NCBI GenBank assembly: GCA_963744745.1
Contig: CAVUVD010000019.1
Location: 427,651-491,650, forward strand
Reading direction: 5' to 3'
From: an uncultured Bacteroidota bacterium
Lineage (GTDB): Bacteria > Bacteroidota > Bacteroidia > Bacteroidales > VadinHA17
Length of the DNA stretch: 64,000 bases
Shown: one piece after another, positions 51,376 to 64,000 of the stretch
How positions within the stretch are numbered: the first letter of the stretch is position 1
Layout: every line of letters begins with the position of its first letter
Notes under the pieces: model-generated
What the model was told of the DNA's origin: nothing
Databases searched by the model: none
What the model saw: the letters and a program-made list of their open reading frames with translations, nothing else
Position numbers and translations under genes: made by a program

Positions 51376-52158
51376 TGAATGAACTTATTCAACCATTGCT
51401 CACCCTGATGAACGATATCAGGGAAGTTAAAGCATGTATGCAAATTCTAAAGCAAACTCATGCTGAAAAATTCAAAGAAAGCTGGATAGACGCGCAGGAC
51501 GTGATGCTTGCCCTCAACATCAGCAAACGAACTTTACAATCTCTCCGGGATAAAGGCATTTTGCCTTATCAATTATTCCGATGGATTCCGTAAGGCATTC
51601 CATCACGAAACAATCCGGTACTATCGCAAAACGGATCGTGAGTTTGTGGACATTGATTGCCCCCGGCTTTCTGCGGTTCTGTCGGGCACTCCAAAGCAGA
51701 TACAGAACTTGATACCTGAAGTTGAAAACGGATTATTCAGCCGCTTCATATTCTATTACCTGGAAATGTCATCTGTTTGGAAGGATGTATTCGAACGCAA
51801 GGCTGAAAATGGGCTGGATGATTATTTTGGCCGATTTGCACAACAATATTATGAATTGCATAAAATCATGAAATCCACGCTAAATATTGAATTTACCCTT
51901 ACAGTTAGCCAGCAGCAACAATTCAACAATATTTTTGCCCGATGGCAGAACATTTATGAAACGCTTGTGGGACAGGAATACACTGCTACCGTGAGAAGAT
52001 TGGGGCTGATTACTTTTCGTATGGCAATGATTTTTTCGGTATTGAGAATAATGGAAAATGGGGAATTGCCGCTAAAGCTGGTTTGTGAAGAACGTGAGTT
52101 TCAAAATGCTATTTCCATAACTGGAGTATTAATTGTTCATGCGAAGAAAGTATTTTGA
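51375..52158 (+). pseudogene. deletion fusion: second HTH_17-like gene truncated and joined out of frame to the C-terminal part of a DUF3987-like gene
   Basis: Frame 1 reads DAQDVMLALNISKRTLQSLRDKGILPY and then stops (QLFRWIP*). A different frame continues YSDGFRKAFHHETIRYYRKTDREFVDIDCPRLSAVLSGTPKQ...GLFSRFIFYY. The junction is near 51570. Confidence 0.55.
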
Positions 52159-52434
52159 AAAAAGGATTAATCCACAGGGATAAACACGATTGTTATTTTA
52201 AATTTCCCAATGAGGAAATTAAGGATTTAGGGGATTCATAGGAAGATATCCCCTGTTTCCTCAAAATCCTTAATATCCTTACTAATACAAATAAATATTT
52301 CTATACCCTGTTTTTCCTGATTTCACTATGCTTTTAATCAGGCTGAAATAACAACATAAATATTGAATTTAATATGATAAATATTTTGCGATAATCACCG
52401 AAAAAAGGTATCTTTCGCAAACATTTACTCTCTT

Positions 52435-53250
52435 ATGGATATACAAAAAGAAATACGGATACTTACCTGGATTGAACTTCTTCAATCAAAAGGAGCCTTC
52501 GCATTTTCTATTGAATCTGCAAAATCTGAATTACCCGGATATACCGAAATTGCCTTAAAAAGAGCTTTAAGCCGTTTATCTGAAAAAGGCAAAATTATTT
52601 CTATATATAAAGGGTATTACCTCATACTTCCTCCCCAATACTCAATTAAAGGTATTTTACCACCTGTATTGTTTTTAGATGCTTTTTTCAAATTTCTCAA
52701 CAGGCCGTACTATGTTTCTCTTATAAATGCTGCTGCATTTCATGGTGCATCGCACCAGCAACCACAGGAATATTTTGTTATGACCAGCTTTCCTGCAATG
52801 CGGGCTACCCAAAAAAAAGGATTAAAAATCAATTATGTAAGCATCGATAAAATTCCGGAAAAGCTCCTTGAAAAACGCAAAACCGAAGCAGGATACCTTA
52901 CCATTTCAAATCCTGCGCTTACAGCAACCGACCTTGTACAGTTCGAAAAAAGGATTGGAGGTTTAAACCGTGCTGCAACAATATTAAATGAATTGATGGA
53001 AGTTCTTAAACCTTCCAATTTTAACAATGATATTCTGACTCACGCTGCTGTTACTACGCTTCAGCGTTTGGGTTATCTGCTGGAATTTATCTGTTTAAAC
53101 AGTGGACTATCGAACGCCTTATTTAAAAAAATGGAACAACAAAGGCTCAGGTTATTTCGGATTCCGCTAAAAGCATCTGGGCAAGCAAACGGATTTTCTT
53201 CTGACAATCGTTGGAAGGTAATTGTAAACACTGAAATTGATATTGAATAA
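52435..53250 (+). CDS. abiEi: AbiEi family type IV toxin-antitoxin antitoxin
   Basis: 271-aa ORF with a winged-helix-like N-terminus. Its stop overlaps the start of the AbiEii-type ORF (ATAATGA at 53247-53253), the classic abiE arrangement. Confidence 0.7.
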   Translation: MDIQKEIRILTWIELLQSKGAFAFSIESAKSELPGYTEIALKRALSRLSEKGKIISIYKGYYLILPPQYSIKGILPPVLFLDAFFKFLNRPYYVSLINAAAFHGASHQQPQEYFVMTSFPAMRATQKKGLKINYVSIDKIPEKLLEKRKTEAGYLTISNPALTATDLVQFEKRIGGLNRAATILNELMEVLKPSNFNNDILTHAAVTTLQRLGYLLEFICLNSGLSNALFKKMEQQRLRLFRIPLKASGQANGFSSDNRWKVIVNTEIDIE

Positions 53251-54041
53251 TGATTCCACAAGCATACATAACGGAATGGAGCCAACAAGTACCCTGGCAA
53301 ACAAACGAGCAGGTTGAACAAGACCTTGTGATTTGCCGTGCATTGGTAGAATTGTTTTCCGATGATTGGTTAGCTGAAAACCTTGCATTCAGGGGAGGAA
53401 CTGCTTTGCATAAGCTATTTCTCAGCCCTCAGCAACGATATTCTGAAGATATTGACCTGGTACAAATCACAGCTGAACCATTTGGACCGATAGTCGACAG
53501 AATAAGAGAAAGGCTTGTATTTTTGGGAGAACCTAAGCGAAGTCCTAAAGCCCATAACTTTACATTGTACTTTCAGTTTGAATCTGAATTTCCACCCACG
53601 GTTAATCTCCGGTTGAAAGTTGAAACCAATACAAGGGAACATTTTACGGTAAGTGATTTGGTAAAAGTACCTTTCGAAGTTAATTCTTCATGGTTTACGG
53701 GTAATTGCGAACTTACCACTTATGCATTAGAAGAATTATTGGGCACCAAACTGCGGGCGTTATACCAACGCAAAAAGGGAAGAGATTTGTATGATTTATA
53801 TAATGCCCTTTCCCGCAATTCCAAACTTGATATAGATTTGCTTTTAAACTGCTACCGCGAATACATGAAGTTTTCGGTTGACAATCCGCCAAGCCAAAGG
53901 GAATTTATTTTAAACATGGAATCGAAAATAAATGACCCTGAGTTTTCGGGCGATACAACAGCAATACTGCGACAAGGGCAGGAATATGAGCCATTGGCAG
54001 CTTACGAATTGATTAAAACAGAATTAATTGAGAAAATATAG
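53250..54041 (+). CDS. abiEii: AbiEii/AbiGii family nucleotidyltransferase toxin
   Basis: FRGGTALHKLF...RYSEDIDL motif block typical of DUF1814/AbiEii. Confidence 0.8.
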   Translation: MIPQAYITEWSQQVPWQTNEQVEQDLVICRALVELFSDDWLAENLAFRGGTALHKLFLSPQQRYSEDIDLVQITAEPFGPIVDRIRERLVFLGEPKRSPKAHNFTLYFQFESEFPPTVNLRLKVETNTREHFTVSDLVKVPFEVNSSWFTGNCELTTYALEELLGTKLRALYQRKKGRDLYDLYNALSRNSKLDIDLLLNCYREYMKFSVDNPPSQREFILNMESKINDPEFSGDTTAILRQGQEYEPLAAYELIKTELIEKI

Positions 54042-54093
54042 CTATACAAAAGACATTTTAAAAAGATATACAAAACATATTAAGTAAATAATA

Positions 54094-56205
54094 ATGGCAA
54101 TTAAAAAATCTGAATTATACAGTTCGCTTTGGGCAAGTTGCGATGAATTAAGAGGCGGTATGGATCCGAGCCAGTACAAGGATTATGTGTTGGTTTTATT
54201 GTTTTTAAAGTATGTTTCCGACAAATATGCGAACGATCCCGATGCTATCATTGAAATTCCCGCAGGTGGAAGTTTCAAAGATATGATAGCACTGAAGCAC
54301 CAAAAAGATATTGGTGATAAAATGAATACCATCATAGGAGAATTGGCAAAAGCCAATGACCTGGTTGGGGTAATTGATGTTGCCGACTTTAACGATGACG
54401 AAAAGCTTGGAAAAGGCAAGGAAATGGTCGACAAACTTACCAACCTGATTTCCATTTTTCAGAACCCTGCATTAGATTTCAGTAAAAACCGGGCTGAAGG
54501 CGATGATATTCTGGGCGATGCTTTTGAATACCTGATGAAAAACTTTGCCACAGAAAGTGGTAAGAGTAAAGGACAATTCTATACCCCCAGTGAAGTAAGC
54601 CGTGTAATTGCAAAAGTATTAGGTATACACAATGCCACAAACAAAACTACTTTTTATGACCCCACTTGTGGTTCTGGTTCATTGTTGCTTAAAGCAGTGG
54701 ATGAAGCAGATGGTAAAGGTACAATTTACGGTCAGGAAAAAGATGTGGCAACCGCTGCCCTTGCGCGTATGAATATGATTTTACACGGTCAGGAAGCCAT
54801 TGAAATCCACCGTGGACAAAGCACACTCTCCGACCCGTTTTTTAAAGACGCTAACGGCTATTTAAAAACATTTGACTTTGTAGTTGCCAATCCCCCTTTT
54901 TCATCTAAAAACTGGACTTCCGGATTTAATCCACAGGAAGATATTTATGAGCGTTTTGAATTAGATGTAGAAGAAAGCCAAAAGACCGGGGAAAAATTAT
55001 TTAAAACGCCACCTGAAAAAAACGGCGATTTTGCTTTTCTGCTGCATATAATTAAATCACTAAAGAGCACAGGAAAAGGCGCCTGCATACTTCCTCACGG
55101 TGTATTGTTCCGTGGAAATGCCGAAGCTGCTATTCGAAAAAGTATCATTGAAAGGGGTTATATTAAAGGAATTATCGGTTTACCTGCCAACCTGTTTTAT
55201 GGCACAGGTATTCCTGCCTGCATTATTGTAATCGACAAAGAAGGCGCCGATAAAAGGAAACATCTTTTTATGATTGATGCCGGGAAAGGCTATATCAAAG
55301 ACGGCAACAAAAACCGCTTACGCGAACAGGATATTCATAAGATTGTGGATGTATTTAACAAGCAGATACCAATCCCAGGATTCAGCCGATTGGTCAGCAT
55401 CGAAGAAATTAGCGACCCTAAAAATGACTACAACCTCAATATCCCACGCTACATTGATAATCAGGAAACAGAAGATATACAAGACATTGAAGCACATTTA
55501 TTAGGTGATATTCCGAATGTTGATATTGAGGCTTTGAATGAATATTGGGAAGTATATAAAACATTGAAAGGTGAATTGTTTTCTGCCAGCAAACGAGCCA
55601 ATTACAGCCAGTTAAAAATAAGCAAAGACCTCATAAGGCAAACAATATTCAACCATCCTGAATTCGTGACTTTTAGCCAGAAAATGGATGCTCTGTTTAC
55701 TGATTGGAAAACCCGTAACACCAAAACATTAAAATCATTAACAATAGGCATTAAGCCAAAACAAATTATATACAAGGTGTCGGAAGATGTTTTGAAAGCA
55801 TACACCGATAAGCCGTTGATGGACAAATACGATGTGTACCAGCATTTAATGAATTACTGGGCTGAGACCATGCAGGATGATTGCTATTTAATAGCTGCCG
55901 ATGGTTGGAAAGCCGAACTTAGCATTATAAAGCAAACTAAAACCGCTACCGTTTGGGATTGCGACCTTGTACCAAAAACATTGGTGATGAACCGCTATTT
56001 CTTAACAGAGAAAAAAGCCGTTGAACAATTGGAGGCAGAGAAAGAAGGTATTGCTGCACAAATTGCTGAAATGGAAGAAGAACATAACACAGAAGACGGA
56101 TATTTTTCTGAATTAGATAAACTAAACAAAGCCAATGTACAAAAACGTTTAAAAGAATTGCTGGCAACGCAGTCAAAAAACAAAATAACTGAAATATCTA
56201 GTTGA
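54094..56205 (+). CDS. hsdM: type I restriction-modification system methyltransferase subunit (HsdM-like N6-adenine MTase), orphan
   Basis: Motif I YDPTCGSGSLLL and motif IV VVANPPFS. It has a long coiled-coil C-terminal extension. No hsdS or hsdR is present in the window. Confidence 0.8.
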   Translation: MAIKKSELYSSLWASCDELRGGMDPSQYKDYVLVLLFLKYVSDKYANDPDAIIEIPAGGSFKDMIALKHQKDIGDKMNTIIGELAKANDLVGVIDVADFNDDEKLGKGKEMVDKLTNLISIFQNPALDFSKNRAEGDDILGDAFEYLMKNFATESGKSKGQFYTPSEVSRVIAKVLGIHNATNKTTFYDPTCGSGSLLLKAVDEADGKGTIYGQEKDVATAALARMNMILHGQEAIEIHRGQSTLSDPFFKDANGYLKTFDFVVANPPFSSKNWTSGFNPQEDIYERFELDVEESQKTGEKLFKTPPEKNGDFAFLLHIIKSLKSTGKGACILPHGVLFRGNAEAAIRKSIIERGYIKGIIGLPANLFYGTGIPACIIVIDKEGADKRKHLFMIDAGKGYIKDGNKNRLREQDIHKIVDVFNKQIPIPGFSRLVSIEEISDPKNDYNLNIPRYIDNQETEDIQDIEAHLLGDIPNVDIEALNEYWEVYKTLKGELFSASKRANYSQLKISKDLIRQTIFNHPEFVTFSQKMDALFTDWKTRNTKTLKSLTIGIKPKQIIYKVSEDVLKAYTDKPLMDKYDVYQHLMNYWAETMQDDCYLIAADGWKAELSIIKQTKTATVWDCDLVPKTLVMNRYFLTEKKAVEQLEAEKEGIAAQIAEMEEEHNTEDGYFSELDKLNKANVQKRLKELLATQSKNKITEISS

Positions 56206-56210
56206 AGCCA

Positions 56211-56711
56211 TCACCAATACTTTTCCTTGTTTCTGACTTCCCGTCCACGTTTTTTCGGAGCAGATTTTTCTTCTTCATTTTGTTCAGTGTCAACGACCTC
56301 AAAAAAACCTTCATCCAGTTCTACAATCTTATCCAACTTGTACCTACTATCCCTGGATCCCATGGTTACTCTCAGCTTCTGCATCATAAACCAAATGGGT
56401 TCATAAAATTTATGTCCTATCTGCCTTTGAAGCTCTTTCGCTGAGAAAGTCTTTTTTGTCCCTGTTAACAAATGAATTGCAATAAACCAGTATCTGAATG
56501 GAAGATTACTTGCCTGCATTACTGTTCCACTTCTTAAGGTTGTTCTGGTCTTGCATTTCTTGCATTGATACTGCTCGATGGTTTGTAACCAATAGTGATC
56601 AGTACCACCACATTTTCTACAGATGACTCCTTGTTCATCCCGGAATTCCTTAAATTTGATCCTGCATGAGGATTCATCAGGAAATGACTCGATAAATTTG
56701 ATTAGATTCAC
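56211..56711 (-). mobile_element. IS1595-family transposase fragment (N-terminal zinc-ribbon/HTH part only)
   Basis: CRKCGG...YQCKKCKTRTTLRSGTVMQASNLPFRYWFIAIHLL...SAKELQRQ. It ends after VELDEGFF, and the DDE domain is missing. Confidence 0.7.
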
Positions 56712-56730
56712 GTCAATATTTTTCTTATAA

Positions 56731-57339
56731 TATAATCAATTATTCATCATTCCCGACACCCATATAAAGAAATTCGGCGAACAGGAGCATTATTATACGT
56801 CGTTTGTAAATCAACCTGATAGTTTCTTTCCGGTTACCAAAAAAAGTAAACCTATATATAGAAAGGAAACCAATGAAGAAGGTGAAGAAATTTATGTAAA
56901 AGTTGATGGTTCAGCATTTTGTGTTTCTATCTTAAAAAGATATTACAATTCCCTCATACATGCATATTTCAAAGACCTGAATTATATGGTTAAACCTAAC
57001 TTCATTGACGATACCGAAATATGGATTACAGGCCTGCGAAGCACTAACGAATATAATTTTTATGAAAAATTTACCGTAAAAGTACAAATTGCAAAAGTAA
57101 CCAGGCAGCCAGAGCCTTTGATAACCTATGCCGGACAATCGAAGGTTTTTAAAAAAAGCATTGCCGATTTTATTGATCTAGTTTCTCCGAAATGTTTAAA
57201 TTGGGTGATTTTCAGTAATAATTTGTACAAATTTGATGAGCTGCCCGAGGAAGCGAGGCGAAATTATGAAAATGTATTTCCGGTATGGAATTTCGATTTT
57301 AGAAATGCCCTGCGCCAGGAAACGGTATTGACCGACTGA
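56731..57339 (+). pseudogene. open frame without start codon; possible N-terminal fragment of a prokaryotic Argonaute
   Basis: The frame is open from 56731, but the first ATG is at 56986. It lies 19 nt from the divergent IS1595 fragment. The assignment rests on context with the next ORF and weak recollection of pAgo N-domains. Confidence 0.3.
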
Positions 57340-57359
57340 TCATACACTTTTTCAAGAAC

Positions 57360-57833
57360 ATGAATAGCAAAGAATTCGATCCTATCGAAGAAGGTTTAAA
57401 AGAAATGGGATTGAATATTCCGGTTTTCATTTTGTCAATCAACAAAACAGAATCGCATGATATTGTGGCTTTTGATAACAACTGGTCAAAACTAATGCCC
57501 GCGAGCGGCACATACATAAACCTTGGGCATAATAGGTTCTTACTCTTTAACAACACCCGGTACAATGATGATACTTCCAGGGATATTGACGGGTTTCCGT
57601 TCCCGATCAAATTAAGCATAACCTGTACTGATCCGGAATTAACGGATGATACCAAAATCATAAGAGAATTAATAGACCAGGTTTACCAGTTCAGCCGTAT
57701 GTTATGGAAATCCGTGAGGCAGCAGAACCTGCCGGTTACCATCAAATATCCGGAAATGGTAGCCGAGATATTCCCGTATTTCGTCGGCAACGAAATACCT
57801 GATTTCGGGAAGGATAATTTGTGGTTTTTGTGA
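57360..57833 (+). pseudogene. C-terminal PIWI-domain fragment of a prokaryotic Argonaute
   Basis: At 157 aa it is far too short for a pAgo. GTYINLGHNRFLLFNNTRY...GFPFPIKLSI...IIRELIDQVYQFSRMLWKSVRQQNLPVTIKYPEMVAE resembles the end of PIWI domains (the ...LP.T..Y....A pattern). Confidence 0.5.
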
Positions 57834-57911
57834 GATAGTTTAAATTTTCTTTCAGGTTTATTTGGAGCAATTTTTTTATTTTCTTATTTAGAATGTTTTT
57901 TTAAGGATTTA

Positions 57912-58826
57912 ATGCTAGTTAAACAATTTCCAAATATAAAAAACATCGAGTGTACAAGTCGTTGTAATTTAAATTGCCCAATCTGTGTGCTAAAAACCAG
58001 AGATTCAGGCGATATAGATTTCAATCTTCTTTTGAAAATATTGGAGAAAAATTGTGATTTTATGGTAGGTCAGAAAATTTGGTTACATTATAGAGGTGAA
58101 CCATTTTTAAATAAAAACATTTTTCAAATCATAAATTTATTTGATAAGTTTAAAATTAAAAGCAGATTATCCACAAATGGCATACTCCTATTAAACCAAA
58201 ATATTAAAAAAATTTTAGATTCAAAATTAGAAATGATGGTCATTTCAATGATAACAAATAATCCAGTCTATTATAAAAAGCTTCGTGGTGCAGATTTATA
58301 TTATTCAATCTTGAAGAAAGTGGAAAATTTGATTCTAATGAAGAAAACATTAAACTCTCAGTTAGATATTCAGGTAATGGGATTGGATTATGGTCAATCA
58401 AAAAACGAAATAAATGAATTTATTGATTATTTCCATAATTTAGGAGTATGTGTCGGAATTCATAAATATAGTACAAGACTTCAGGAATCAAGATATAAAC
58501 CTTTTGATATTAAAGAAGTAGTTCGCCAACCCTGTCATTGGCCATTTAATAATACAGTAATACTTTATAATGGCGATATTACAACATGTTATTTTGATTT
58601 GAATGGCCGTGGCGTTATAGATAACTTGAAAAACTATAATTATTCAATACTTGATCTATGGAATAGCACTAAATACAAACATATAAGAGCTAATCACCTT
58701 AAATATAAATTCAAAGGTCATTGTGAACATTGTACTGATTGGATCTATAATAATTCAAATTCGAAACTTGAAGTAATTAGAATGATGACAATCTATCCTT
58801 TAAAAGGTATACCATATGATACATAA
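57912..58826 (+). CDS. radical SAM enzyme with partial SPASM/twitch-like C-terminal Cys cluster
   Basis: CNLNCPIC (CxxxCxxC) near the N-terminus. C-terminal CHWPFNNTVILYNGDITTCYFD...CEHCTDW. Confidence 0.75.
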   Translation: MLVKQFPNIKNIECTSRCNLNCPICVLKTRDSGDIDFNLLLKILEKNCDFMVGQKIWLHYRGEPFLNKNIFQIINLFDKFKIKSRLSTNGILLLNQNIKKILDSKLEMMVISMITNNPVYYKKLRGADLYYSILKKVENLILMKKTLNSQLDIQVMGLDYGQSKNEINEFIDYFHNLGVCVGIHKYSTRLQESRYKPFDIKEVVRQPCHWPFNNTVILYNGDITTCYFDLNGRGVIDNLKNYNYSILDLWNSTKYKHIRANHLKYKFKGHCEHCTDWIYNNSNSKLEVIRMMTIYPLKGIPYDT

Positions 58827-58848
58827 CATTATATAATAATCCATATCA

Positions 58849-59595
58849 ATGAACAATAATAAGGAATATGCTATTGTGACTGGTGCTTCATCAGGCATTG
58901 GTGAAGCAATTGCAAAATATTTAACCAGTAAAAAAGTTATAGTTTTTGGTTTAGATATTCAAGAAGGAAAAGAAAAAGGAATCAGATTCTTGAAATGCGA
59001 TGTTAGTAAAGAAAATGAAGTTACTAATTCTCTCGCCTTAATTGAAAAAGAAACAAATCAAATAAAATATTTAGTTAACGTTGTTGGTATATTATCAGTA
59101 GGTGGGGTATCTTATATTAAAGACCAAAATATTACATATTGGAATACAATTTTAAATATTAATTTGACAAGTATTTTAATAATGATAAAAAATGTTCTAC
59201 CTTTTTTAATAAGATCGCATGAAGCAAGTGTCGTAAATATTTCATCTGACCAATCATTCAAAGGATTAAAAGGAGCTGCACCCTACAGTGTTTCAAAAGC
59301 AGGTGTGAACGCCCTTACAAAAATAGCAGCTCTTGAATTATCAGAATTTGGAATCAGAGTGAATGCAGTAGCCCCTGGAACAGTTAAAACCAATTTTCTA
59401 CAATCAGTCATAAATGATACTGATAAAATTACTAGTATGTATAGAAATGCAGACAAAAAACTGCCTTTTGGTTTAATAGAACCAAATGATGTTGCGGCTT
59501 TAGTAGATTTTTTATTATCTAATAGATCAAAAAGAATCACTGGCGAAGTCATACTGATTGATAGCGGACAGATTTTAAATTCCATTTCATTATAA
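58849..59595 (+). CDS. short-chain dehydrogenase/reductase (SDR) family oxidoreductase
   Basis: TGASSGIG cofactor motif, NVVG, and the catalytic S...YSVSK. Confidence 0.85.
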   Translation: MNNNKEYAIVTGASSGIGEAIAKYLTSKKVIVFGLDIQEGKEKGIRFLKCDVSKENEVTNSLALIEKETNQIKYLVNVVGILSVGGVSYIKDQNITYWNTILNINLTSILIMIKNVLPFLIRSHEASVVNISSDQSFKGLKGAAPYSVSKAGVNALTKIAALELSEFGIRVNAVAPGTVKTNFLQSVINDTDKITSMYRNADKKLPFGLIEPNDVAALVDFLLSNRSKRITGEVILIDSGQILNSISL

Positions 59596-59609
59596 TCTAT
59601 ATAATCAGA

Positions 59610-60785
59610 ATGAACTCATTAAATTTTGATCCAGAAACTCTATCTCTTGAATTAGCTACTTCAAACGGGAATAATTGGATACTAAATCCACCTATCCAAC
59701 AGAAAATGAATCAATTAATAACTAAGTACCGGATCGAAACAACATTTTTATGTAATCTATCATGTGAATACTGTATTATTTTTAAGAATAATGTTACCTC
59801 TAAGATAACAAATATGAGTCTGGAAGTAATTAATAAACTCATATCACAATTTAATCAAGAAGTTAATAAAAATGGAACTCTTTATCTTTTTGGCGCCGAA
59901 CCATTATTGAATTGGAATGTCATTAAATATGCAGTGGAGAATTGTTTGGGCCGTAAAGTAATATTTACCAATGGGCTTTTATTGTCTGAAAATAAGATAA
60001 AGTTATTTAAAGAAAATGAAGTTACTATTATGATTTCTCTTGATGGGTATAAACCAGAGCATAATGTGTATCGTTTTAAAAATAAATCGAAAGAGTTATT
60101 AAAGGATATTTTGAAAAAGATTGAATTGTTAAAAAGAAATAACTGTAATTTCATTTTGTGTTCTCTGGTGAATAAGTATAACATTGAAGACTTATACAGT
60201 ATTACGAGTTATTTTTTTAATAATCTGGCTATTGAAAATTATAGTTTTTCATACCCACATTATACTTTGGTTAACTCTGAGACAAATAATTTTGATATTT
60301 CAAAATATACAAACCAAATTTGTGGTTTATTAGAACTTACAAAAAAAGAAAAAATTTATATTCATCAATTAGCCGATGTTTTACATACATTATTAACCAG
60401 ACAACCAAAACATTATTCTTGTGGTGTTGGCACATGTCAGAGAACATTTTACCCAGATGGCTCAGAGACTGTCTGTACAAAATTAGATCAAATACCCTGT
60501 TTTTCAATTAAGACTTTTTTAGAAAAAACATTACCCGATAACAATTTAAATTGCAGCCATTGTTCCGCAAGGAAAATATGTGGTGGTGGATGCCCTTTTG
60601 ACGCTGCTATTCATCCTAATAAAATAGGTGTTGATTCAAGGATATGTTTTTATAAGAAGGAGCTATTAATGTTCATTTTAAAAGACATGGAAAAAGAGTT
60701 GAGTGACACAACCGAGCTAGAAATTAAAAGCAAAATGGAAAACTATTTAGAGATATCACATACTAATTGGGATAAATTATGTTGA
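59610..60785 (+). CDS. radical SAM/SPASM domain protein (anSME / peptide-maturase-like)
   Basis: CNLSCEYC motif. SPASM-type YSCGVGTCQRTFYPDGSETVC and CSHCSARKICGGGCPFDA. Confidence 0.8.
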   Translation: MNSLNFDPETLSLELATSNGNNWILNPPIQQKMNQLITKYRIETTFLCNLSCEYCIIFKNNVTSKITNMSLEVINKLISQFNQEVNKNGTLYLFGAEPLLNWNVIKYAVENCLGRKVIFTNGLLLSENKIKLFKENEVTIMISLDGYKPEHNVYRFKNKSKELLKDILKKIELLKRNNCNFILCSLVNKYNIEDLYSITSYFFNNLAIENYSFSYPHYTLVNSETNNFDISKYTNQICGLLELTKKEKIYIHQLADVLHTLLTRQPKHYSCGVGTCQRTFYPDGSETVCTKLDQIPCFSIKTFLEKTLPDNNLNCSHCSARKICGGGCPFDAAIHPNKIGVDSRICFYKKELLMFILKDMEKELSDTTELEIKSKMENYLEISHTNWDKLC

Positions 60786-61699
60786 AAAAAGTGAGAAATA
60801 ACACATCTAATAACAATTTAGATCCCTGGAATAACTTACTGAATCCTATAAATTCTAGTTATCTATTAAATAACCTTGAAATATTTGATAAGGACCCAAA
60901 TCAGAATATAATATTTGGATATAAGAAAATCTCACTATTTCCCAAAGAAAAATTATTGTTGTTTTTAGGTACAGATGTTTCTGGAGATTTGCATTTAGGC
61001 CATTTATCACTTCTTTTAATCGCAAAAGCATTAGAAAATATTTGGAATGGTGAATTAATTGTGTCTTTAAATGAAATTGAAAGTTTGACATCCAGAGATA
61101 TGCCTATAAAAGAACTTTTCGCGAATAAAAACTCTATTATTAAAGAATTGATTGCTTTAAATGTTAAATACCATAGCAGGTTAGATGATAACTTAGTCGT
61201 CTTATTATCAACACATCTTCTCAATTTAATAATAAACAAAGATATTATTGATTTCAAATATTATTATAGTAAACGATTAAACATACGAGACATACAAAGT
61301 TTGTGCGTCATGTTAGTTACTCCAATAATTATTTCATATCATAATGATTCAAAAAAAATAATGGCCATATACGGTAAAGATGAAATGTCTCATTTATGCT
61401 TAATTTATGATTTGTATAATTCACCTTGGTTTAAAGAAATCATATATAATGTAGCTGGAATTAACTGTCCTACCATAGGATTTATGATTGTCAATCTGAT
61501 TCCAGGTTTAGATAGTAAAAGAAAAATGAGTAAAACTTTACCCGAAAATTCAATTCTAATCAAAAACATTTCTAAAGGACATTCAATAACAATTCCCATT
61601 CAATTATATTTAAAACAAGTCATACAACTCGTTTCATCCATAAATGAAGAAATACAATTAAACGAAATGTATTTAAAATTAAGACAACTTCTAGACTAA
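60779..61699 (+). CDS. class Ic aminoacyl-tRNA-synthetase-like protein (TyrRS/TrpRS-type paralog)
   Basis: GTDVSGDLHLGHL (HIGH-type), GKDEMSH (GxDQ-like) and PGLDSKRKMSKT (KMSKS-type). At 306 aa it is similar in size to minimal archaeal-type TyrRS. The start overlaps the upstream stop (ATGTTGA). Confidence 0.65.
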   Translation: MLKKVRNNTSNNNLDPWNNLLNPINSSYLLNNLEIFDKDPNQNIIFGYKKISLFPKEKLLLFLGTDVSGDLHLGHLSLLLIAKALENIWNGELIVSLNEIESLTSRDMPIKELFANKNSIIKELIALNVKYHSRLDDNLVVLLSTHLLNLIINKDIIDFKYYYSKRLNIRDIQSLCVMLVTPIIISYHNDSKKIMAIYGKDEMSHLCLIYDLYNSPWFKEIIYNVAGINCPTIGFMIVNLIPGLDSKRKMSKTLPENSILIKNISKGHSITIPIQLYLKQVIQLVSSINEEIQLNEMYLKLRQLLD

Positions 61700-61706
61700 A
61701 CAAAAT

Positions 61707-62828
61707 ATGAAATATTTTGATGTTATTTTTTCAAACAACTTTAACTTAAATCTTTTAGATAGCTTTAATGAGTTATTGAAAAATCAATTAAGAAATGAAA
61801 ATAATTTTCTTAAAAGTATTTCTAGTTCAATAAAGAATCTCAAGAACGATTTAACAGATGTACTGTCTTCTTATAGTATCTCTTTTGGATTTAACATTAC
61901 ATCAAGTATAATCTTGGTGCTTGAGAAACTTCCAAAATATATTGTGATTACAAATAAAGAGTTTCCGCCCATTATCTCACAAGTATTCCATTCAAACAAA
62001 CAAATTACAGGAATTCTTGATATTCAAAACATGAATTATGAAGAACTATTCAATATTGATAACATTGATGAAATAATTTTTTTGATAAGCCATATATCCT
62101 ATATTGATGGAGAAGATATTCTTGATAATTTTTTAAACTCTGTTACCAATATTAAGCAATTGAGGACAAAAAAAATACATATCATTATAGATGGAGCTCA
62201 TTCTATTTGCAATAATTTTATTGTAAGCGATATCCCGGAATTGCATAAAAAATTATCAGCTGTCGTTAACATTGAAAGTTTTACTTATGTCTTTGATTTC
62301 CACAAATGGGTTCAAGGTTTTTTTGGTCTCTCTGTTATCATTTCTAGTCGTAAGACAATTTGTAATTCTTTAAATCATATTTTTCCTAACACCTTAAATT
62401 TTGATGATTATTATATTAGGTTCCATCCTCCGGTCTCAGTATCTTTTAATCCTTTATTGATATACTGGAAGCTAAATATAGACAATTTCAGCTTCCGTTT
62501 ATTTGATGGCAATCAAATTAAAAGGAATAATAGTTTAAAATCAGTCTTTATCTCTTCTTATAAAAACAATTCGGAGATACAATTGATACTAAACAGTAAC
62601 AATTTAATTTCATTAAATTCTGCAAATCCTGAATATCTTTATAAATATTTATTAAATAATAATATACAAACTCATTTAATAGGAGGTAGAACAATCGATA
62701 CAAATTGTAGAATTCAAATTATTAGTAACAATGTAAGATTAGCATTTTCTTCTATTTTAATTGATAATGAAGATATTAATTATTTGACTACTAAACTAAA
62801 ACAATACAAATATGAAGAAAAGGCATAA
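61707..62828 (+). CDS. class V-like (cysteine desulfurase / aminotransferase fold) PLP-dependent enzyme
   Basis: IIDGAHS and FDFHKW...FFGLSV resemble the DGAQS / SxHKxxGPxGxG PLP-lysine region. The sequence is very AT-biased and divergent. Confidence 0.5.
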   Translation: MKYFDVIFSNNFNLNLLDSFNELLKNQLRNENNFLKSISSSIKNLKNDLTDVLSSYSISFGFNITSSIILVLEKLPKYIVITNKEFPPIISQVFHSNKQITGILDIQNMNYEELFNIDNIDEIIFLISHISYIDGEDILDNFLNSVTNIKQLRTKKIHIIIDGAHSICNNFIVSDIPELHKKLSAVVNIESFTYVFDFHKWVQGFFGLSVIISSRKTICNSLNHIFPNTLNFDDYYIRFHPPVSVSFNPLLIYWKLNIDNFSFRLFDGNQIKRNNSLKSVFISSYKNNSEIQLILNSNNLISLNSANPEYLYKYLLNNNIQTHLIGGRTIDTNCRIQIISNNVRLAFSSILIDNEDINYLTTKLKQYKYEEKA

Positions 62829-63588
62829 AGTTGTTACAAAACTATTTGACATATCATTTAAAAAAAACAAAAATGAGCAAATATTTTGGAAAGAGATATT
62901 TCAAAATAAAATTAATATCTATAACAAAAATGGTATATCTGATTGGGATATCAGAGCAAGTAAGAGATATTATCAAATTTTATTATGCGATATTAAGGAA
63001 TTACTTGAAATTAAAAATTTTAATGGTATAAGAAGTTTAGAATTAGGCTGTGGAACCAGTATACTCTCTTTGCTAATGGCATCTGAAGGAGCGACTGTTT
63101 ATTTATTAGATCAATTACAGGAAGCATTAGACTATAGCAAAATATTGGAAAATCAAATTTCGAAAAGCCTTAATTTTACAGGAAAAGTTAATTATATTAA
63201 TGCAAATTTATTTGAAATAGAAGATTTAAAAAAAACATTCATAGATTTTGATATTGTTCATAATATTGGAGTTATTGAAGAACATAGTCCTACTGAAGCT
63301 CAAAGTATAATTGAAATTATGAAGAAAATTGCAAATAAATATGTAATCGTAGGTGTACCAAATTTCTTCAATCCTTATCTTCTAAGTTTTTGGTTTAAAA
63401 ACGGAAAAGCAAACGAACTTTATTACAGTAGGGGATCTCTTTGCAGACTGATGAAGAGATTAGAACTTAGAGAAACAAAAGTAGTTACAACTTCATACTT
63501 ATATCCGTTTAAGAAATTTACACGTTTAGAAAAATTTACTGCTAATATTGGATTTGGATTTCTTCACTTAGCTGTAGCTACGATTTAA
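62812..63588 (+). CDS. class I SAM-dependent methyltransferase
   Basis: Motif I is SLELGCGTSILSL, followed by an acidic LLD. The start overlaps the upstream ORF by 17 nt. Confidence 0.75.
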   Translation: MKKRHKVVTKLFDISFKKNKNEQIFWKEIFQNKINIYNKNGISDWDIRASKRYYQILLCDIKELLEIKNFNGIRSLELGCGTSILSLLMASEGATVYLLDQLQEALDYSKILENQISKSLNFTGKVNYINANLFEIEDLKKTFIDFDIVHNIGVIEEHSPTEAQSIIEIMKKIANKYVIVGVPNFFNPYLLSFWFKNGKANELYYSRGSLCRLMKRLELRETKVVTTSYLYPFKKFTRLEKFTANIGFGFLHLAVATI

Positions 63589-63604
63589 AAAAAATTATTA
63601 GCCT

Positions 63605-64000
63605 ATGTTAATAAACGAACTTTGTCGTTTCAGGCCTCCAACTAGAGGTAGACTTTTAATTTGGGAAATTACCAATAATTGTAATTTATTATGTAAACAT
63701 TGTTGTAATTCCAGCAATAATCAAATAAATAAGAAAGAATTAAGTATTGATATTATTTCATCTATTATACCCGAAATAATTAAATTAAATATTCGTGAAA
63801 TTTACTTTACGGGAGGAGAACCTCTAGTTAGAAAAGATTTTTATAATATTTTATCATTATTTAAAGGTCTTTCTATAGATACCTTTTTTGCTACAAATGG
63901 GACATTATTTGATATTGAGAAAGTTAAAAAAATAAATAACCTCAATATAAAACAGGTCACAATTAGTCTTGATAGTCATTTCCCATCAATTCATAATAAC
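63605..64000 (+). CDS. radical SAM enzyme (third in operon), 3' end outside window
   Basis: This frame is not in the supplied ORF track because it has no stop. My own translation from the ATG at 63605 is MLINELCRFRPPTRGRLLIWEITNNCNLLCKHCC...IYFTGGEPLVRKDF...ATNGTL...ISLDS. Confidence 0.75.
   Translation, partial: MLINELCRFRPPTRGRLLIWEITNNCNLLCKHCCNSSNNQINKKELSIDIISSIIPEIIKLNIREIYFTGGEPLVRKDFYNILSLFKGLSIDTFFATNGTLFDIEKVKKINNLNIKQVTISLDSHFPSIHNN

What the first reader, a model, noticed from the sequence alone, without database searches (positions are those of the whole stretch)
60779..61699. Stand-alone TyrRS/TrpRS-like class Ic synthetase paralog embedded between radical-SAM and PLP genes
**Seen in the sequence**
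- The 306-aa ORF keeps the catalytic signatures in the canonical order: GTDVSGDLHLGHL, GKDEMSH and PGLDSKRKMSKT.
- The rest of the sequence is very diverged and AT-biased.
- Its start overlaps the stop of the SPASM enzyme gene.

**Established knowledge**
- aaRS paralogs inside gene clusters can act as amino-acid ligases onto non-tRNA acceptors (for example MshC, or GluQRS on tRNA queuosine).
- They can supply aminoacyl-tRNA for tRNA-dependent biosynthesis.
- They can be self-resistance copies in clusters that make aaRS inhibitors.

**Inference**
- This protein probably activates an aromatic amino acid for the pathway.
- I cannot tell by eye whether it still binds tRNA.
Basis: partly seen in the sequence, partly recalled or inferred. 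Interest (0 to 1): 0.75.

Follow-up and report, generated by a model that had tools for sequence, protein, structure and literature searches.

The report
Truncated TrpRS-like enzyme linked to CysRS
This gene encodes a rare, shortened copy of a tryptophan-tRNA-charging enzyme that keeps its ATP-using active site but has lost the part that reads the tRNA anticodon; it sits in an imported ten-gene chemistry cassette and is repeatedly found beside a full cysteine-tRNA synthetase, so it most likely attaches an amino acid to something other than its usual tRNA.

Summary
Window 60779-61699(+) is a 306-aa ORF with all three quoted motifs. Its ATG overlaps the stop of the upstream radical-SAM gene.

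- **Fold:** profile and structure searches place it in class Ic, nearest archaeal/eukaryotic-type TrpRS.
- **Not a normal synthetase:** only 53 residues follow KMSKT, against 98-132 in real TrpRS/TyrRS. It scores 20 bits against a trpS cut-off of 177.
- **Rarity:** about 15 relatives exist among 1.84 billion protein representatives.
- **Island:** it lies in a 27% GC, roughly 9.8-kb island inside a 43% GC Bacteroidota genome.
- **Conserved neighbours:** in unrelated contigs the relatives recur with orthologous partners. These are a fold-type-I PLP enzyme directly downstream, a SAM methyltransferase, a NirJ-like radical-SAM/SPASM enzyme and a PNP-like protein.
- **New link:** a full-length, canonical CysRS lies next to or inside the cluster in 5 of 7 distinct contexts with readable flanks.

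Best reading: an ATP-dependent amino-acid-activating ligase in an uncharacterised amino-acid-tailoring cassette coupled to cysteine, Cys-tRNA or CysRS. The amino acid, the acceptor and the product are unknown, and an aromatic substrate is not supported. This is a new variant of the known kind "aaRS-like biosynthetic paralog".

The parts
60779..61699 (+). 306-aa TrpRS-derived aaRS-like protein (P0001): N-terminal extension, Rossmann catalytic domain and a short C-terminal helical stub
   Evidence: ORF. Pfam PF00579 scores 23.4 bits, above the 21.1 cut-off. hhalign to TrpRS gives 97.8% probability, E 1e-12. AF2 pLDDT is 89.7. Foldseek top hits are TrpRS.
60968..61006 (+). HIGH-region motif GTDVSGDLHLGHL (residues 64-76; HLGH = 72-75)
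   Evidence: G64, G69, H72, L73, G74 and H75 are invariant or nearly invariant in the family. The motif aligns to HVGH 170-173 of human TrpRS.
61373..61393 (+). GKDEMSH (residues 199-205), the equivalent of the class Ic GxDQ motif
   Evidence: G199 and D201 are invariant; E202 and H205 are nearly invariant. The motif aligns to AIDQ 310-313 of human TrpRS and to GPDE of archaeal-type TrpRS.
61502..61537 (+). PGLDSKRKMSKT (residues 242-253); KMSKT loop at nt 61523-61537
   Evidence: K249, M250, S251 and K252 are invariant in the 11-member family alignment. The loop aligns to KMSAS/KMSKS of TrpRS.
61538..61696 (+). C-terminal stub of 53 residues (short helices) in place of the 98-132-residue anticodon-binding domain
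   Evidence: DSSP on the model shows helices 261-266, 272-288, 290-294 and 296-305. Residues after KMSKS number 52-60 in all family members, against 98-132 in the reference TrpRS/TyrRS.
57912..58826 (+). Radical-SAM/SPASM enzyme (304 aa), first gene of the low-GC cassette
   Evidence: Pfam Radical_SAM and SPASM. NCBIfam gives only distant hits.
58849..59595 (+). Short-chain dehydrogenase/reductase (248 aa)
   Evidence: Pfam adh_short_C2 E 4e-46.
59610..60785 (+). Radical-SAM enzyme with a Cys-rich SPASM-type C-terminus (391 aa); its stop overlaps the aaRS-like start
   Evidence: Pfam Radical_SAM E 2e-16. Best NCBIfam hit is PapB-type rSAM/SPASM at 85.8 bits, far below the cut-off. Overlap shown.
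61707..62828 (+). Fold-type-I PLP-dependent enzyme (373 aa) of an unnamed family; directly follows the aaRS-like gene in six independent clusters
   Evidence: No Pfam, NCBIfam or PDB sequence hit. AF2 pLDDT 75.7, pTM 0.83. Foldseek finds SufS, SepSecS, HisC, SPL and others at E about 1e-9. D162, K200 and R344 are invariant and no Cys is invariant. Synteny.
62812..63588 (+). Class I SAM-dependent methyltransferase (258 aa), orthologous across the clusters
   Evidence: Pfam Methyltransf_31/23. It is 37-52% identical to the methyltransferases beside the relatives in L007, L009, L010 and L014.
63605..64000 (+). 5' part of a third radical-SAM/SPASM gene (311 aa, NirJ/AhbD-like) that runs off the window. 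In the near-identical contig L002 it is followed by a PNP-like protein (207 aa), a full CysRS and an ATP-grasp-like protein (333 aa).
   Evidence: L002 equals window 57705 onward, with 13 mismatches in 6296 nt. Gene list; Pfam; NCBIfam NirJ2 at 133 bits and cysS at 378.6 bits against a 340 cut-off.
57900..64000 (.). Low-GC (25-33%) island carrying the cassette. It continues about 3.7 kb beyond the window end, for roughly 9.8 kb and 10 genes in total.
   Evidence: Composition profiles. GC is 0.269 in the island and 0.426 in the rest of the window.

Best explanation
The gene encodes a TrpRS-derived, catalytic-domain-only 'aaRS-like' enzyme. It keeps the class I ATP site (HLGH, GxDE, KMSK) and the Glu that holds the substrate's alpha-ammonium group. 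I therefore infer that it still makes an aminoacyl-adenylate from ATP and an alpha-amino acid.

It has lost about half of the C-terminal anticodon-binding domain. It therefore cannot select a tRNA by its anticodon and most likely passes the activated amino acid to a non-canonical acceptor.

It works inside a conserved, horizontally mobile cassette: aaRS-like, then a fold-type-I PLP enzyme, a SAM methyltransferase, a NirJ-like radical-SAM/SPASM enzyme and a PNP-like nucleosidase or phosphorylase, plus variable oxidative tailoring genes. This cassette builds or tailors an unusual amino-acid-derived metabolite. A full-length CysRS is genetically coupled to it. I infer that cysteine chemistry is involved in one of three ways: Cys or Cys-tRNA(Cys) is the partner substrate, the product is a cysteine or Cys-AMP analogue, or the CysRS is the dedicated or immune copy.

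Shown: the fold, the motifs, the truncation, the rarity, the foreign origin and the conserved synteny. Inferred: adenylation activity, a non-tRNA acceptor and the role of CysRS. Unknown: the amino acid and the product.
For: **Fold and motifs**
- Class Ic fold, nearest archaeal/eukaryotic-type TrpRS: Pfam, PDB phmmer hits are TrpRS only, hhalign 97.8% with E 1e-12, Foldseek E 6e-10.
- The family HMM scores archaeal-type TrpRS above bacterial TrpRS above TyrRS.
- In the 11-member alignment K249, M250, S251, K252, G199, D201 and E101 are invariant, and H72, G74 and H75 are nearly invariant.
- E101 aligns with E199 of human TrpRS.

**Truncation**
- Only 52-60 residues follow KMSKS in every member, against 98-132 in genuine enzymes.
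- The model shows only four short helices there.

**Not a housekeeping enzyme**
- trpS equivalog score is 20 bits against a 176.75 cut-off.
- There are 18 hits among 1.84e9 representatives.
- Scans of 185,579 species genomes and of JGI metagenomes found only one Saccharibacteria MAG and one contig.
- The low-GC island has sharp borders and sits beside mobile and defence genes in a Bacteroidota host.

**Conserved cassette**
- The PLP gene is directly downstream in the window, L009, L010, L014, L018 and a JGI contig.
- Orthologous methyltransferase (37-52% identity), rSAM/SPASM (39-46%) and PNP-like protein (27-39%) recur across clusters spanning 27-62% GC.

**CysRS linkage**
- CysRS is linked in L002, L004, L007/L008, L009 and L010/L011.
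- The CysRS is canonical: cysS equivalog 378.6 bits against a 340 cut-off, MshC 161 against 485. All motifs and the C-terminal domain are present.

**Precedent**
- Pairs of a genuine aaRS copy and an aaRS-like enzyme are known in biosynthetic clusters: AcmD/AcmF and SbzA (PMC12945691).
Against: - No biochemical evidence exists. The substrate pocket cannot be read from sequence and I had no model coordinates to inspect.
- Keeping HIGH and KMSKS does not prove adenylation, because SbzA keeps aaRS features yet uses pre-made Ile-tRNA.
- Some relatives sit among housekeeping genes with no biosynthetic neighbours. P0007 lies between smpB and ftsH. P0005 lies between infB and rpsO with only CysRS and the methyltransferase. 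P0003 has only CysRS. This fits a translation- or tRNA-related role at least as well as a metabolite pathway.
- The CysRS belongs to a different aaRS family from the paralog, unlike the AcmD/AcmF and SbzA precedents.
- CysRS adjacency could partly reflect shared descent of the sampled loci.
Confidence: 0.55

Rival explanations
1. Aminoacyl-tRNA-dependent transferase. The protein does not activate an amino acid itself. It binds Cys-tRNA(Cys) made by the linked CysRS through its acceptor end and transfers the cysteinyl group to a small-molecule acceptor built by the PLP, methyltransferase, radical-SAM and PNP-like enzymes. The acceptor could be nucleoside-like. AcmF, SbzA and cyclodipeptide synthases work this way. 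The CysRS copy would then double as supplier and self-resistance enzyme.
For: - A full CysRS is linked in 5 of 7 distinct contexts with readable flanks.
- A more distant clade of the same superfamily sits beside genuine TrpRS genes: L005 and L015. This echoes the AcmD/AcmF arrangement (PMC12945691).
- Class Ic catalytic domains are the scaffold of the tRNA-dependent cyclodipeptide synthases (PMC9437257).
- The PNP-like gene and radical-SAM genes are compatible with nucleoside chemistry.
Against: - HLGH and KMSK are strictly kept in the main family. Cyclodipeptide synthases lost both motifs.
- In the known cases the transferase derives from the same aaRS family as the tRNA it uses. Here a TrpRS derivative would have to handle Cys-tRNA.
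- The minimal contexts (CysRS plus aaRS-like, with or without the methyltransferase) carry no genes to make an acceptor.
Confidence: 0.2
2. tRNA-directed enzyme. It still acts on tRNA but without reading the anticodon. One option is charging a tRNA (for example tRNA-Cys) with a precursor or non-canonical amino acid that the adjacent PLP enzyme converts on the tRNA, as in SepRS/SepCysS, SelA or SepSecS, or as PylS works with pylBCD. The other option is aminoacylating a modified base, as GluQRS does.
For: - The architecture (catalytic domain only, about 300 aa) mirrors GluQRS (PMC9437257).
- The gene directly downstream and tightly spaced encodes a fold-type-I PLP enzyme. Its Foldseek hits include SepSecS at rank 2 with E 1e-9.
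- Relatives lie among translation genes: nusA-infB-CysRS, rpsO-pnp, smpB and ftsH.
- The window cassette's mix of radical-SAM, ATP-grasp-like and dehydrogenase genes loosely recalls pylBCD.
Against: - No tRNA gene lies in or beside any of the clusters and there is no Rfam hit.
- The SepSecS hit is not distinguishable from dozens of other fold-type-I enzymes.
- The PLP enzyme keeps the invariant Arg344 at the position where fold-type-I enzymes usually bind a free alpha-carboxylate (the functional reading is inference).
- The family is far too rare for a general translation function.
- Many members lack the PLP partner.
Confidence: 0.12
3. An ordinary or spare synthetase: a diverged but functional TrpRS or TyrRS, acting as a housekeeping, stress or antibiotic-resistant copy.
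For: It has a class Ic fold and intact catalytic motifs. Resistant TrpRS copies exist in indolmycin producers (PMC9437257).
Against: - trpS equivalog score is 20 bits against 176.75.
- The C-terminal domain is half the size of even the minimal M. jannaschii TyrRS.
- The gene lies in a foreign island in a Bacteroidota genome.
- Only 18 hits exist in 1.84e9 representatives.
- Indole-contacting positions are not kept.
Confidence: 0.03
4. A catalytically dead scaffold or regulatory subunit, for example a partner of CysRS or of the PLP enzyme.
For: It is tightly spaced with the PLP gene. It recurs next to CysRS.
Against: Invariance is concentrated exactly in the ATP- and amino-acid-binding motifs across homologs of about 30% identity. 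That argues for retained catalysis.
Confidence: 0.05

Closest known systems
Archaeal/eukaryotic-type tryptophanyl-tRNA synthetase (class Ic; e.g. human, P. horikoshii, A. pernix TrpRS)
   Same: Same Rossmann catalytic fold and an N-terminal extension before strand 1. HxGH, GxD(Q/E) and KMSKS lie in the same order, and the Glu equivalent to E199 is kept. These enzymes are the best sequence and structure matches.
   Different: Only 53 residues follow KMSKS, against 116-124 in the archaeal-type TrpRSs found here (L015, P0020) and 128-132 in the bacterial ones. A family-specific insertion of about 12 residues follows the LYxxxWF helix. Family-specific invariant residues include N98, E99, R106, H132, R134 and M178. 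The trpS equivalog score is far below its cut-off.
GluQRS (YadB), a truncated GluRS paralog that glutamylates queuosine in tRNA-Asp
   Same: A class I synthetase of about 300 aa reduced to its catalytic domain. It has no anticodon-binding domain and keeps its adenylation motifs (PMC9437257).
   Different: GluQRS derives from GluRS, not TrpRS. GluQRS is not described in that review as part of a PLP / methyltransferase / radical-SAM cassette. An action on tRNA is untested for the present protein.
AcmF/AcmD (ascamycin) and SbzA (SB-203208): aaRS-like transferases paired with a genuine aaRS copy in a biosynthetic cluster
   Same: An aaRS-like enzyme and a full-length aaRS copy are encoded together in a specialised cluster. 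The full copy supplies aa-tRNA and/or confers self-resistance (PMC12945691).
   Different: In those systems the aaRS-like enzyme and the aaRS copy belong to the same family (Ala/Ala, Ile/Ile). Here a TrpRS derivative is paired with CysRS. The cluster content differs as well.
MshC (CysRS paralog, cysteine:GlcN-Ins ligase of mycothiol synthesis)
   Same: A class I aaRS paralog that adenylates an amino acid and ligates it to a non-tRNA acceptor. It also involves cysteine chemistry (PMC9437257).
   Different: MshC derives from CysRS. The CysRS linked here is a true cysS equivalog, not MshC: 378.6 bits against a 340 cut-off, versus 161 against 485.
Cyclodipeptide synthases (AlbC family)
   Same: Stand-alone catalytic domain structurally related to TyrRS/TrpRS, with no C-terminal tRNA-binding domain, used in natural-product clusters (PMC9437257).
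   Different: By general knowledge, cyclodipeptide synthases have lost HIGH and KMSKS and do not use ATP. This family keeps both motifs strictly. No cyclodipeptide synthase appears among the top 50 Foldseek hits.
SepRS/SepCysS and PylS/pylBCD (an aaRS encoded with amino-acid-making or tRNA-dependent PLP/radical-SAM enzymes)
   Same: An aaRS-type gene sits beside a fold-type-I PLP enzyme (SepCysS-like logic). It also sits beside radical-SAM, ATP-grasp-like and dehydrogenase genes (pylBCD-like logic).
   Different: There is no dedicated tRNA gene. The synthetase class differs. There is no specific similarity of the PLP enzyme to SepCysS or SepSecS beyond the shared fold.

Membership tests
Class Ic aaRS catalytic domain (Pfam PF00579, tRNA-synt_1b) | Profile score at or above the curated gathering threshold | tested here: met
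   23.4 bits against a 21.1 cut-off, E 4.4e-5. No single matched stretch reaches the reporting E-value on its own; the best-scoring stretch covers residues 195-262. hhalign of the family against a TrpRS alignment gives 97.8% probability over residues 57-263.
Class Ic aaRS catalytic domain (Pfam PF00579, tRNA-synt_1b) | Rossmann fold with HIGH and KMSKS signature motifs in canonical order | tested here: met
   HLGH lies at 72-75 and KMSKT at 249-253; KMSK is invariant and HLGH nearly invariant in the family. The AF2 model (pLDDT 89.7) matches TrpRS/TyrRS structures at E 6e-10 to 1e-7 and TM 0.45-0.59.
Bona fide tryptophan--tRNA ligase (NCBIfam TIGR00233 / NF008927) | Equivalog-level profile score | tested here: not met
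   TIGR00233 scores 20.0 bits against a 176.75 cut-off. NF008927 scores 21.6 bits against 478.
Bona fide tryptophan--tRNA ligase (NCBIfam TIGR00233 / NF008927) | C-terminal helical anticodon-binding domain (about 100-130 residues after KMSKS) | tested here: not met
   53 residues follow KMSKT (52-60 across the family), against 116-132 in TrpRS references and 98 in M. jannaschii TyrRS. The model shows only four short helices there.
Bona fide tryptophan--tRNA ligase (NCBIfam TIGR00233 / NF008927) | Tryptophan-recognising pocket residues | tested here: inconclusive
   Y159 becomes F62, Q194 becomes S96, Q284 (human) / M129 (B. stearothermophilus) is M178, and E199 is kept as E101. The genuine archaeal-type TrpRSs in L015 and P0020 also differ from human TrpRS at Y159 and Q194, so these positions do not discriminate.
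Bona fide tryptophan--tRNA ligase (NCBIfam TIGR00233 / NF008927) | Charges tRNA-Trp with tryptophan | not testable with these tools
   This needs an aminoacylation assay.
Tyrosine--tRNA ligase | Closer similarity to TyrRS than to TrpRS | tested here: not met
   PDB phmmer returns only TrpRS. The family HMM scores M. jannaschii TyrRS lowest, at 9.7 bits. TyrRS structures rank below TrpRS in Foldseek.
Cyclodipeptide synthase | Class Ic-like fold that has lost the ATP-binding HIGH and KMSKS motifs | tested here: not met
   Both motifs are retained and essentially invariant.
aaRS-like biosynthetic enzyme paired with a genuine aaRS copy (AcmF/AcmD, SbzA type) | Co-location with a full-length aaRS gene inside a specialised cluster | tested here: met
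   A full CysRS lies inside the same low-GC island and beside relatives in four further contexts.
aaRS-like biosynthetic enzyme paired with a genuine aaRS copy (AcmF/AcmD, SbzA type) | The aaRS-like enzyme derives from the same aaRS family as the co-located copy and uses its aa-tRNA | tested here: not met
   The paralog derives from TrpRS while the partner is CysRS. Use of aa-tRNA is not testable here.
GluQRS-type truncated class I aaRS acting on a tRNA base | Catalytic-domain-only architecture without an anticodon-binding domain | tested here: met
   This is an architectural resemblance only, because the protein is not homologous to the GluRS branch (one search shows no tRNA-synt_1c hit).
GluQRS-type truncated class I aaRS acting on a tRNA base | Aminoacylates a modified nucleoside in tRNA | not testable with these tools
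   This needs tRNA mass spectrometry or an in vitro assay.
Linked gene: cysteine--tRNA ligase (TIGR00435), as opposed to MshC | Equivalog score, zinc and HIGH/KMSKS motifs, C-terminal anticodon-binding domain | tested here: met
   cysS scores 378.6 bits against a 340 cut-off; MshC scores 161 against 485. The motifs CGPTVY, HIGN, GWHIEC, HHxxE and KMSKS and the CysS_C domain are present. The best PDB match is Borrelia CysRS 3sp1 at E 8e-95.

The most novel reading that the evidence does not exclude
The truncated TrpRS-like enzyme still acts on tRNA. With the adjacent PLP enzyme, and in concert with the linked CysRS, it would form a previously unknown tRNA-dependent route. One version charges a tRNA such as tRNA-Cys, without reading the anticodon, with a precursor or non-canonical amino acid made by the radical-SAM, methyltransferase and PLP enzymes. 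This would be a class I analogue of SepRS/SepCysS or of the PylS/pylBCD logic. The other version is a GluQRS-like aminoacylation of a tRNA base. Either would be a new way of altering decoding or of making an amino acid on tRNA, spread by horizontal transfer.
Probability: 0.1. Interest if true: 0.92.

Novelty: new variant of a known kind. Interest (0 to 1): 0.7.

Why it matters
A 2022 review of duplicated synthetases lists no paralog function for TrpRS or TyrRS; it treats cyclodipeptide synthases only as structural relatives (PMC9437257). This family would be the first TrpRS-derived 'aaRS-like' enzyme that keeps its adenylation machinery while shedding anticodon recognition.

The family comes with a defined, transferable five-gene core plus a CysRS, which can be expressed and assayed directly. 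Working out its chemistry could reveal any of the following:
- a new amino-acid ligation or tRNA-dependent reaction;
- a new cysteine-related metabolite or CysRS-directed inhibitor (a text search found no paper discussing a CysRS self-resistance gene in a cluster);
- a compact class Ic scaffold useful for engineering.

It also shows that CysRS adjacency can serve as a genome-mining handle for these cassettes.

Tried and rejected
- **Narrow collection scans:** a two-sequence alignment found nothing in the species-genome or JGI metagenome collections. An 11-sequence alignment was too diverse to search with. A five-sequence alignment found only one Saccharibacteria MAG and one metagenome contig.
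- **Word-index searches:** the single-protein search returned one relative besides the query itself. The profile search saturated at 8000 candidates and missed the close relatives. The exhaustive representative search was needed to find them.
- **PLP neighbour by sequence:** Pfam, NCBIfam and a PDB profile search gave nothing meaningful. Only the fold search classified it.
- **Cysteine desulfurase reading of the PLP enzyme:** considered because SufS is the top hit. Rejected as unsupported, because no Cys is invariant in the family.
- **Anti-phage defence system:** considered because the island adjoins AbiE, HsdM and an Argonaute remnant. PADLOC gives only generic radical-SAM similarity to viperins, weaker than the NirJ/AhbD hits, and nothing for the aaRS-like, PLP, PNP-like or CysRS proteins. 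Not supported.
- **RiPP pathway:** considered because of the SPASM enzymes. The genes are tightly packed and no conserved small ORF was found in the intergenic regions of five loci. No support.
- **MshC-type ligase for the linked CysRS:** rejected.
- **tRNA or structured RNA in the clusters:** none found.
- **Promoter and terminator scan:** at background level and uninformative.
- **PNP-like and methyltransferase proteins against PDB sequences:** no informative hits.
- **Substrate pocket:** it could not be read, because model coordinates are not exposed and the diagnostic positions vary among genuine archaeal-type TrpRSs.

Full report
**1. The observation**

Window 60779-61699(+) is an ATG-initiated ORF of 306 aa. 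It contains the three quoted motifs in canonical class I order:
- GTDVSGDLHLGHL, residues 64-76;
- GKDEMSH, residues 199-205;
- PGLDSKRKMSKT, residues 242-253.

Its ATG overlaps the TGA of the upstream radical-SAM gene by 7 nt (ATGTTGA). The next gene starts 7 nt after its stop. The cluster is 26.9% GC, against 42.6% for the rest of the window.

**2. It is a real class Ic fold, closest to archaeal/eukaryotic-type TrpRS**

- Pfam tRNA-synt_1b scores 23.4 bits against a curated cut-off of 21.1.
- phmmer against PDB sequences returns only TrpRS chains, led by human TrpRS at E about 0.01, with an alignment running from HIGH through KMSKS.
- A profile of 11 family members aligns to a TrpRS alignment with 97.8% probability and E 1.1e-12.
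- An AlphaFold2 model built on the family alignment is confident, with pLDDT 89.7 and pTM 0.87.
- Its best Foldseek PDB matches are Plasmodium, Aeropyrum, human, Giardia and Pyrococcus TrpRS at E 6e-10 to 1e-8. TyrRS structures follow just behind.
- The family HMM scores archaeal-type TrpRS above bacterial TrpRS, and both above M. jannaschii TyrRS.

**3. It is not a normal synthetase**

- The trpS equivalog models give 20-22 bits against cut-offs of 177 and 478.
- Only 53 residues follow KMSKT, and 52-60 in every family member. Genuine TrpRSs have 116-132 and the minimal M. jannaschii TyrRS has 98.
- In the model this tail consists of four short helices. The anticodon-binding domain is therefore reduced to a stub throughout the family.
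- The catalytic signatures are the most conserved part. In the 11-member alignment E101, G199, D201, K249, M250, S251 and K252 are invariant, and H72, G74 and H75 are nearly invariant.
- E101 aligns with E199 of human TrpRS. From my recollection of the human TrpRS-Trp structures, that residue holds the substrate's alpha-ammonium group.
- Positions that contact the indole in human or Bacillus TrpRS are F62 (for Y159), S96 (for Q194) and M178 (for Q284 in human, M129 in Bacillus).
- Genuine archaeal-type TrpRSs recovered here also differ from human TrpRS at two of these positions. The substrate therefore cannot be called. An aromatic substrate is neither supported nor excluded.
- The family has its own invariant polar residues (N98, E99, R106, H132, R134, D171) and an insertion of about 12 residues.

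**4. The family is extremely rare**

- The exhaustive search of 1.84 billion representatives found 18 proteins at E <= 1e-3. Thirteen of these are at E <= 1e-10, and most are about 300 aa.
- Scans of 185,579 species genomes found one Candidatus Saccharibacteria MAG.
- Scans of JGI metagenomes found one contig.
- A more distant clade (P0016-P0019) has degenerate motifs (HLGT or HLGG, KMGK) and lies beside genuine TrpRS genes. This suggests the whole group arose by duplication of an archaeal-type TrpRS.

**5. Genomic setting in the window**

- The host is a Bacteroidota bacterium, shown by PorP/SprF and a T9SS sorting domain.
- The region at 51-57.8 kb carries mobile and defence genes: an HTH_17 excisionase-like protein, DUF3987, AbiEi/AbiEii, HsdM, an IS1595-type fragment and a weak Piwi remnant.
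- At about 57.9 kb the GC content drops to 25-33%.
- A near-identical contig, L002, has 13 mismatches over 6.3 kb. It shows that the low-GC block continues beyond the window for about 3.7 kb and then ends sharply at 43-46% GC.
- The island holds ten co-directional, tightly packed genes:

| Order | Gene product | Size (aa) |
|---|---|---|
| 1 | rSAM/SPASM | 304 |
| 2 | SDR | 248 |
| 3 | rSAM/SPASM | 391 |
| 4 | aaRS-like | 306 |
| 5 | unnamed protein (PLP enzyme, see section 6) | 373 |
| 6 | SAM methyltransferase | 258 |
| 7 | rSAM/SPASM, NirJ/AhbD-like | 311 |
| 8 | PNP_UDP_1-like | 207 |
| 9 | CysRS | about 446-490 |
| 10 | ATP-grasp-like | 333 |

**6. The downstream neighbour**

- The 373-aa protein has no Pfam, NCBIfam or PDB sequence match and belongs to another tiny family of 8 clusters.
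- Its AF2 model (pLDDT 75.7, pTM 0.83) matches fold-type-I PLP enzymes: SufS, SepSecS, HisC, sphingosine-phosphate lyase, decarboxylases and others, all at E about 1e-9.
- The family keeps D162 (in DGAH), K200 (in F-D-x-x-K-W) and R344, but no invariant Cys.
- I read these as the pyridine-N Asp, the Schiff-base Lys and the carboxylate-binding Arg. That reading is an inference from the general fold-type-I pattern.
A persulfide-forming desulfurase is not.

**7. Conserved synteny elsewhere**

| Locus (relative) | Arrangement |
|---|---|
| L009 (P0006) | CysRS divergent, aaRS-like, PLP, methyltransferase |
| L010/L011 (P0008) | CysRS divergent, rSAM/SPASM, PhyH x2, aaRS-like, PLP, enolase-superfamily dehydratase, ThDP enzyme, PNP-like, methyltransferase, HpcH aldolase, lactonase-like |
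| JGI contig (P0009) | PhyH x2, aaRS-like, PLP, MR_MLE, ThDP, PNP-like, HpcH, SDR |
| L014 (62% GC) | aaRS-like C-terminus, PLP, methyltransferase, rSAM/SPASM, PNP-like, PhyH |
| L018 | aaRS-like, PLP |
| L007/L008 (P0005) | CysRS divergent, aaRS-like, methyltransferase, inserted between infB and a DHH gene/rpsO/pnp |
| L004 (P0003) | CysRS directly upstream, nothing else |
| L016/L017 (P0007) | between smpB and ftsH, no partners |
| L012 (Saccharibacteria MAG) | next to tmk, glyA and dut; possibly degraded |

- The methyltransferases are 37-52% identical across clusters. The rSAM-311 orthologs are 39-46% identical. The PNP-like proteins are 27-39% identical.
- The conserved core is therefore aaRS-like, PLP enzyme, methyltransferase, rSAM/SPASM and PNP-like protein. 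The oxidative tailoring genes vary: extra radical-SAM enzymes here, Fe/2-oxoglutarate-type PhyH enzymes elsewhere.
- The most persistent partner is a CysRS, present in 5 of 7 distinct contexts with readable flanks.

**8. The linked CysRS is canonical**

- The cysS equivalog scores 378.6 bits against a 340 cut-off. MshC scores 161 against 485.
- All zinc, HIGH and KMSKS motifs and the C-terminal domain are present.
- The best PDB match is Borrelia CysRS at E 8e-95, which shares the same insertion and the DHI..HHxNE variant.
- In the window's organism this CysRS lies inside the foreign island. It is therefore most likely a second, cassette-dedicated copy. This is an inference, because the rest of the genome was not available.

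**9. Mechanism**

*Shown:*
- a TrpRS-derived catalytic domain with intact ATP and alpha-amine binding residues and no full anticodon-binding domain;
- membership of a conserved, mobile cassette rich in SAM-using enzymes;
- genetic coupling to CysRS.

*Inferred (best explanation, confidence about 0.55):*
- The enzyme forms an aminoacyl-adenylate and ligates the amino acid to a non-canonical acceptor within an amino-acid-tailoring pathway.
- Cysteine, Cys-tRNA or CysRS is involved, as partner substrate or as target and immunity.
- The PNP-like protein, the SDR, and in L010 the lactonase, dehydratase and aldolase genes could handle adenosine-derived by-products or a sugar moiety. This is a weak inference from family names.

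*Rivals:*
- a Cys-tRNA-dependent transferase like AcmF or SbzA (0.2; precedent in PMC12945691);
- a tRNA-directed enzyme, either SepRS/PylS-like charging or GluQRS-like base aminoacylation (0.12);
- a dead scaffold (0.05);
- an ordinary or resistant TrpRS/TyrRS (0.03).

The housekeeping contexts of some relatives are the main reason the tRNA-directed reading stays alive.

**10. Comparison with known systems and novelty**

- aaRS-like paralogs in metabolism are a known kind. Examples are MshC, GluQRS, aa:carrier-protein ligases, AcmF, SbzA, MetRS-like hydrazine synthetases and cyclodipeptide synthases (PMC9437257; PMC12945691; PMC13149037).
- The review table lists no paralog function for TrpRS or TyrRS.
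- Literature searches found nothing on this family or on a CysRS self-resistance gene in a cluster.
- I file it as a new variant of a known kind. It is a TrpRS-derived, motif-retaining, anticodon-domain-less enzyme tied to a new PLP family and to CysRS.
- It is not a member of bona fide TrpRS, TyrRS or the cyclodipeptide synthases, because defining features were tested and not met.

**11. Verdict**

The general idea of a biosynthetic aaRS paralog is supported. The specific inference of aromatic amino acid activation is not. The notable additions are the truncation, the extreme rarity, the foreign origin, the conserved five-gene core and the CysRS coupling. Interest is 0.7.

Noticed in passing
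L002:7388-8860 (about 1.1 kb beyond the window's 3' end; window-equivalent about 65.1-66.6 kb): A second synthetase gene, a full-length canonical CysRS, lies inside the same low-GC island. It sits downstream of a PNP-like gene and upstream of an ATP-grasp-like gene with a weak MptN match.
   Followed up: yes
window 5679-28613 (+), then 28635-29633: A run of giant ORFs of 4154, 400, 876 and 2314 aa, partly overlapping and possibly one frameshifted gene. They carry PKD-like and Ig-like CHU_C domains. The stretch at 18-26 kb has 50-54% GC and strong AT skew. A PorP/SprF gene follows directly, so this looks like a giant type IX secretion adhesin locus.
   Followed up: partly
window 51073-57833: A mobile and defence stretch lies immediately upstream of the low-GC cassette. 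It holds an HTH_17 excisionase-like gene, DUF3987, an AbiEi/AbiEii toxin-antitoxin pair, a type I HsdM methylase with no adjacent HsdR/HsdS seen, an IS1595-type zinc-ribbon fragment and two short ORFs (56986-57339 and 57360-57833). The second short ORF has a weak Piwi hit (E 0.029), so it may be a decayed Argonaute.
   Followed up: partly
L015:3759-6726: A genuine archaeal-type TrpRS (376 aa) lies two genes from a truncated paralog (P0016, 282 aa, motifs HLGT and KMGKS), with an alcohol dehydrogenase between them. This looks like an evolutionary intermediate between TrpRS and the family studied here.
   Followed up: partly
L005:2183-12272: A distant relative (P0018) sits in a different cluster. 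That cluster holds a Glycos_transf_3 enzyme, an AMP-binding enzyme, a LuxC-type reductase, RibD_C, the aaRS-like gene, a methyltransferase, an APH-type kinase, an unknown 414-aa protein, a bacterial-type TrpRS (345 aa) and a HAD phosphatase. This is another case of an aaRS-like gene, a methyltransferase and a genuine aaRS together.
   Followed up: no
L010:7944-14169: The aerobic-type variant of the cassette carries an enolase-superfamily acid-sugar dehydratase, a ThDP enzyme (5-guanidino-2-oxopentanoate decarboxylase-like), an HpaI/GarL-type aldolase and a fuconolactonase-like amidohydrolase. The set resembles a non-phosphorylative deoxy-sugar acid route, possibly for a ribose-derived moiety or SAM by-products.
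   Followed up: no
L016:2128-4929 and L007:6886-12841: In two contigs made up largely of housekeeping genes (L016/L017 and L007/L008; taxon not determined) the aaRS-like gene takes positions that, from my recollection of common bacterial gene order, tRNA- and ribosome-maturation genes often occupy. One position is directly upstream of ftsH, where tilS often lies. The other is between infB and rpsO, where rbfA and truB often lie. This may be coincidence or a hint of a tRNA-related role.
   Followed up: no
L012:5014-6030: A reverse transcriptase (RVT_1) gene lies about 1.8 kb downstream of the possibly degraded aaRS-like gene in the Saccharibacteria MAG.
   Followed up: no
window 49214-50713 (-): A 499-aa multi-pass membrane protein with no Pfam hit lies just before the mobile region. 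By eye it resembles ArnT/PMT-type glycosyltransferases.
   Followed up: no
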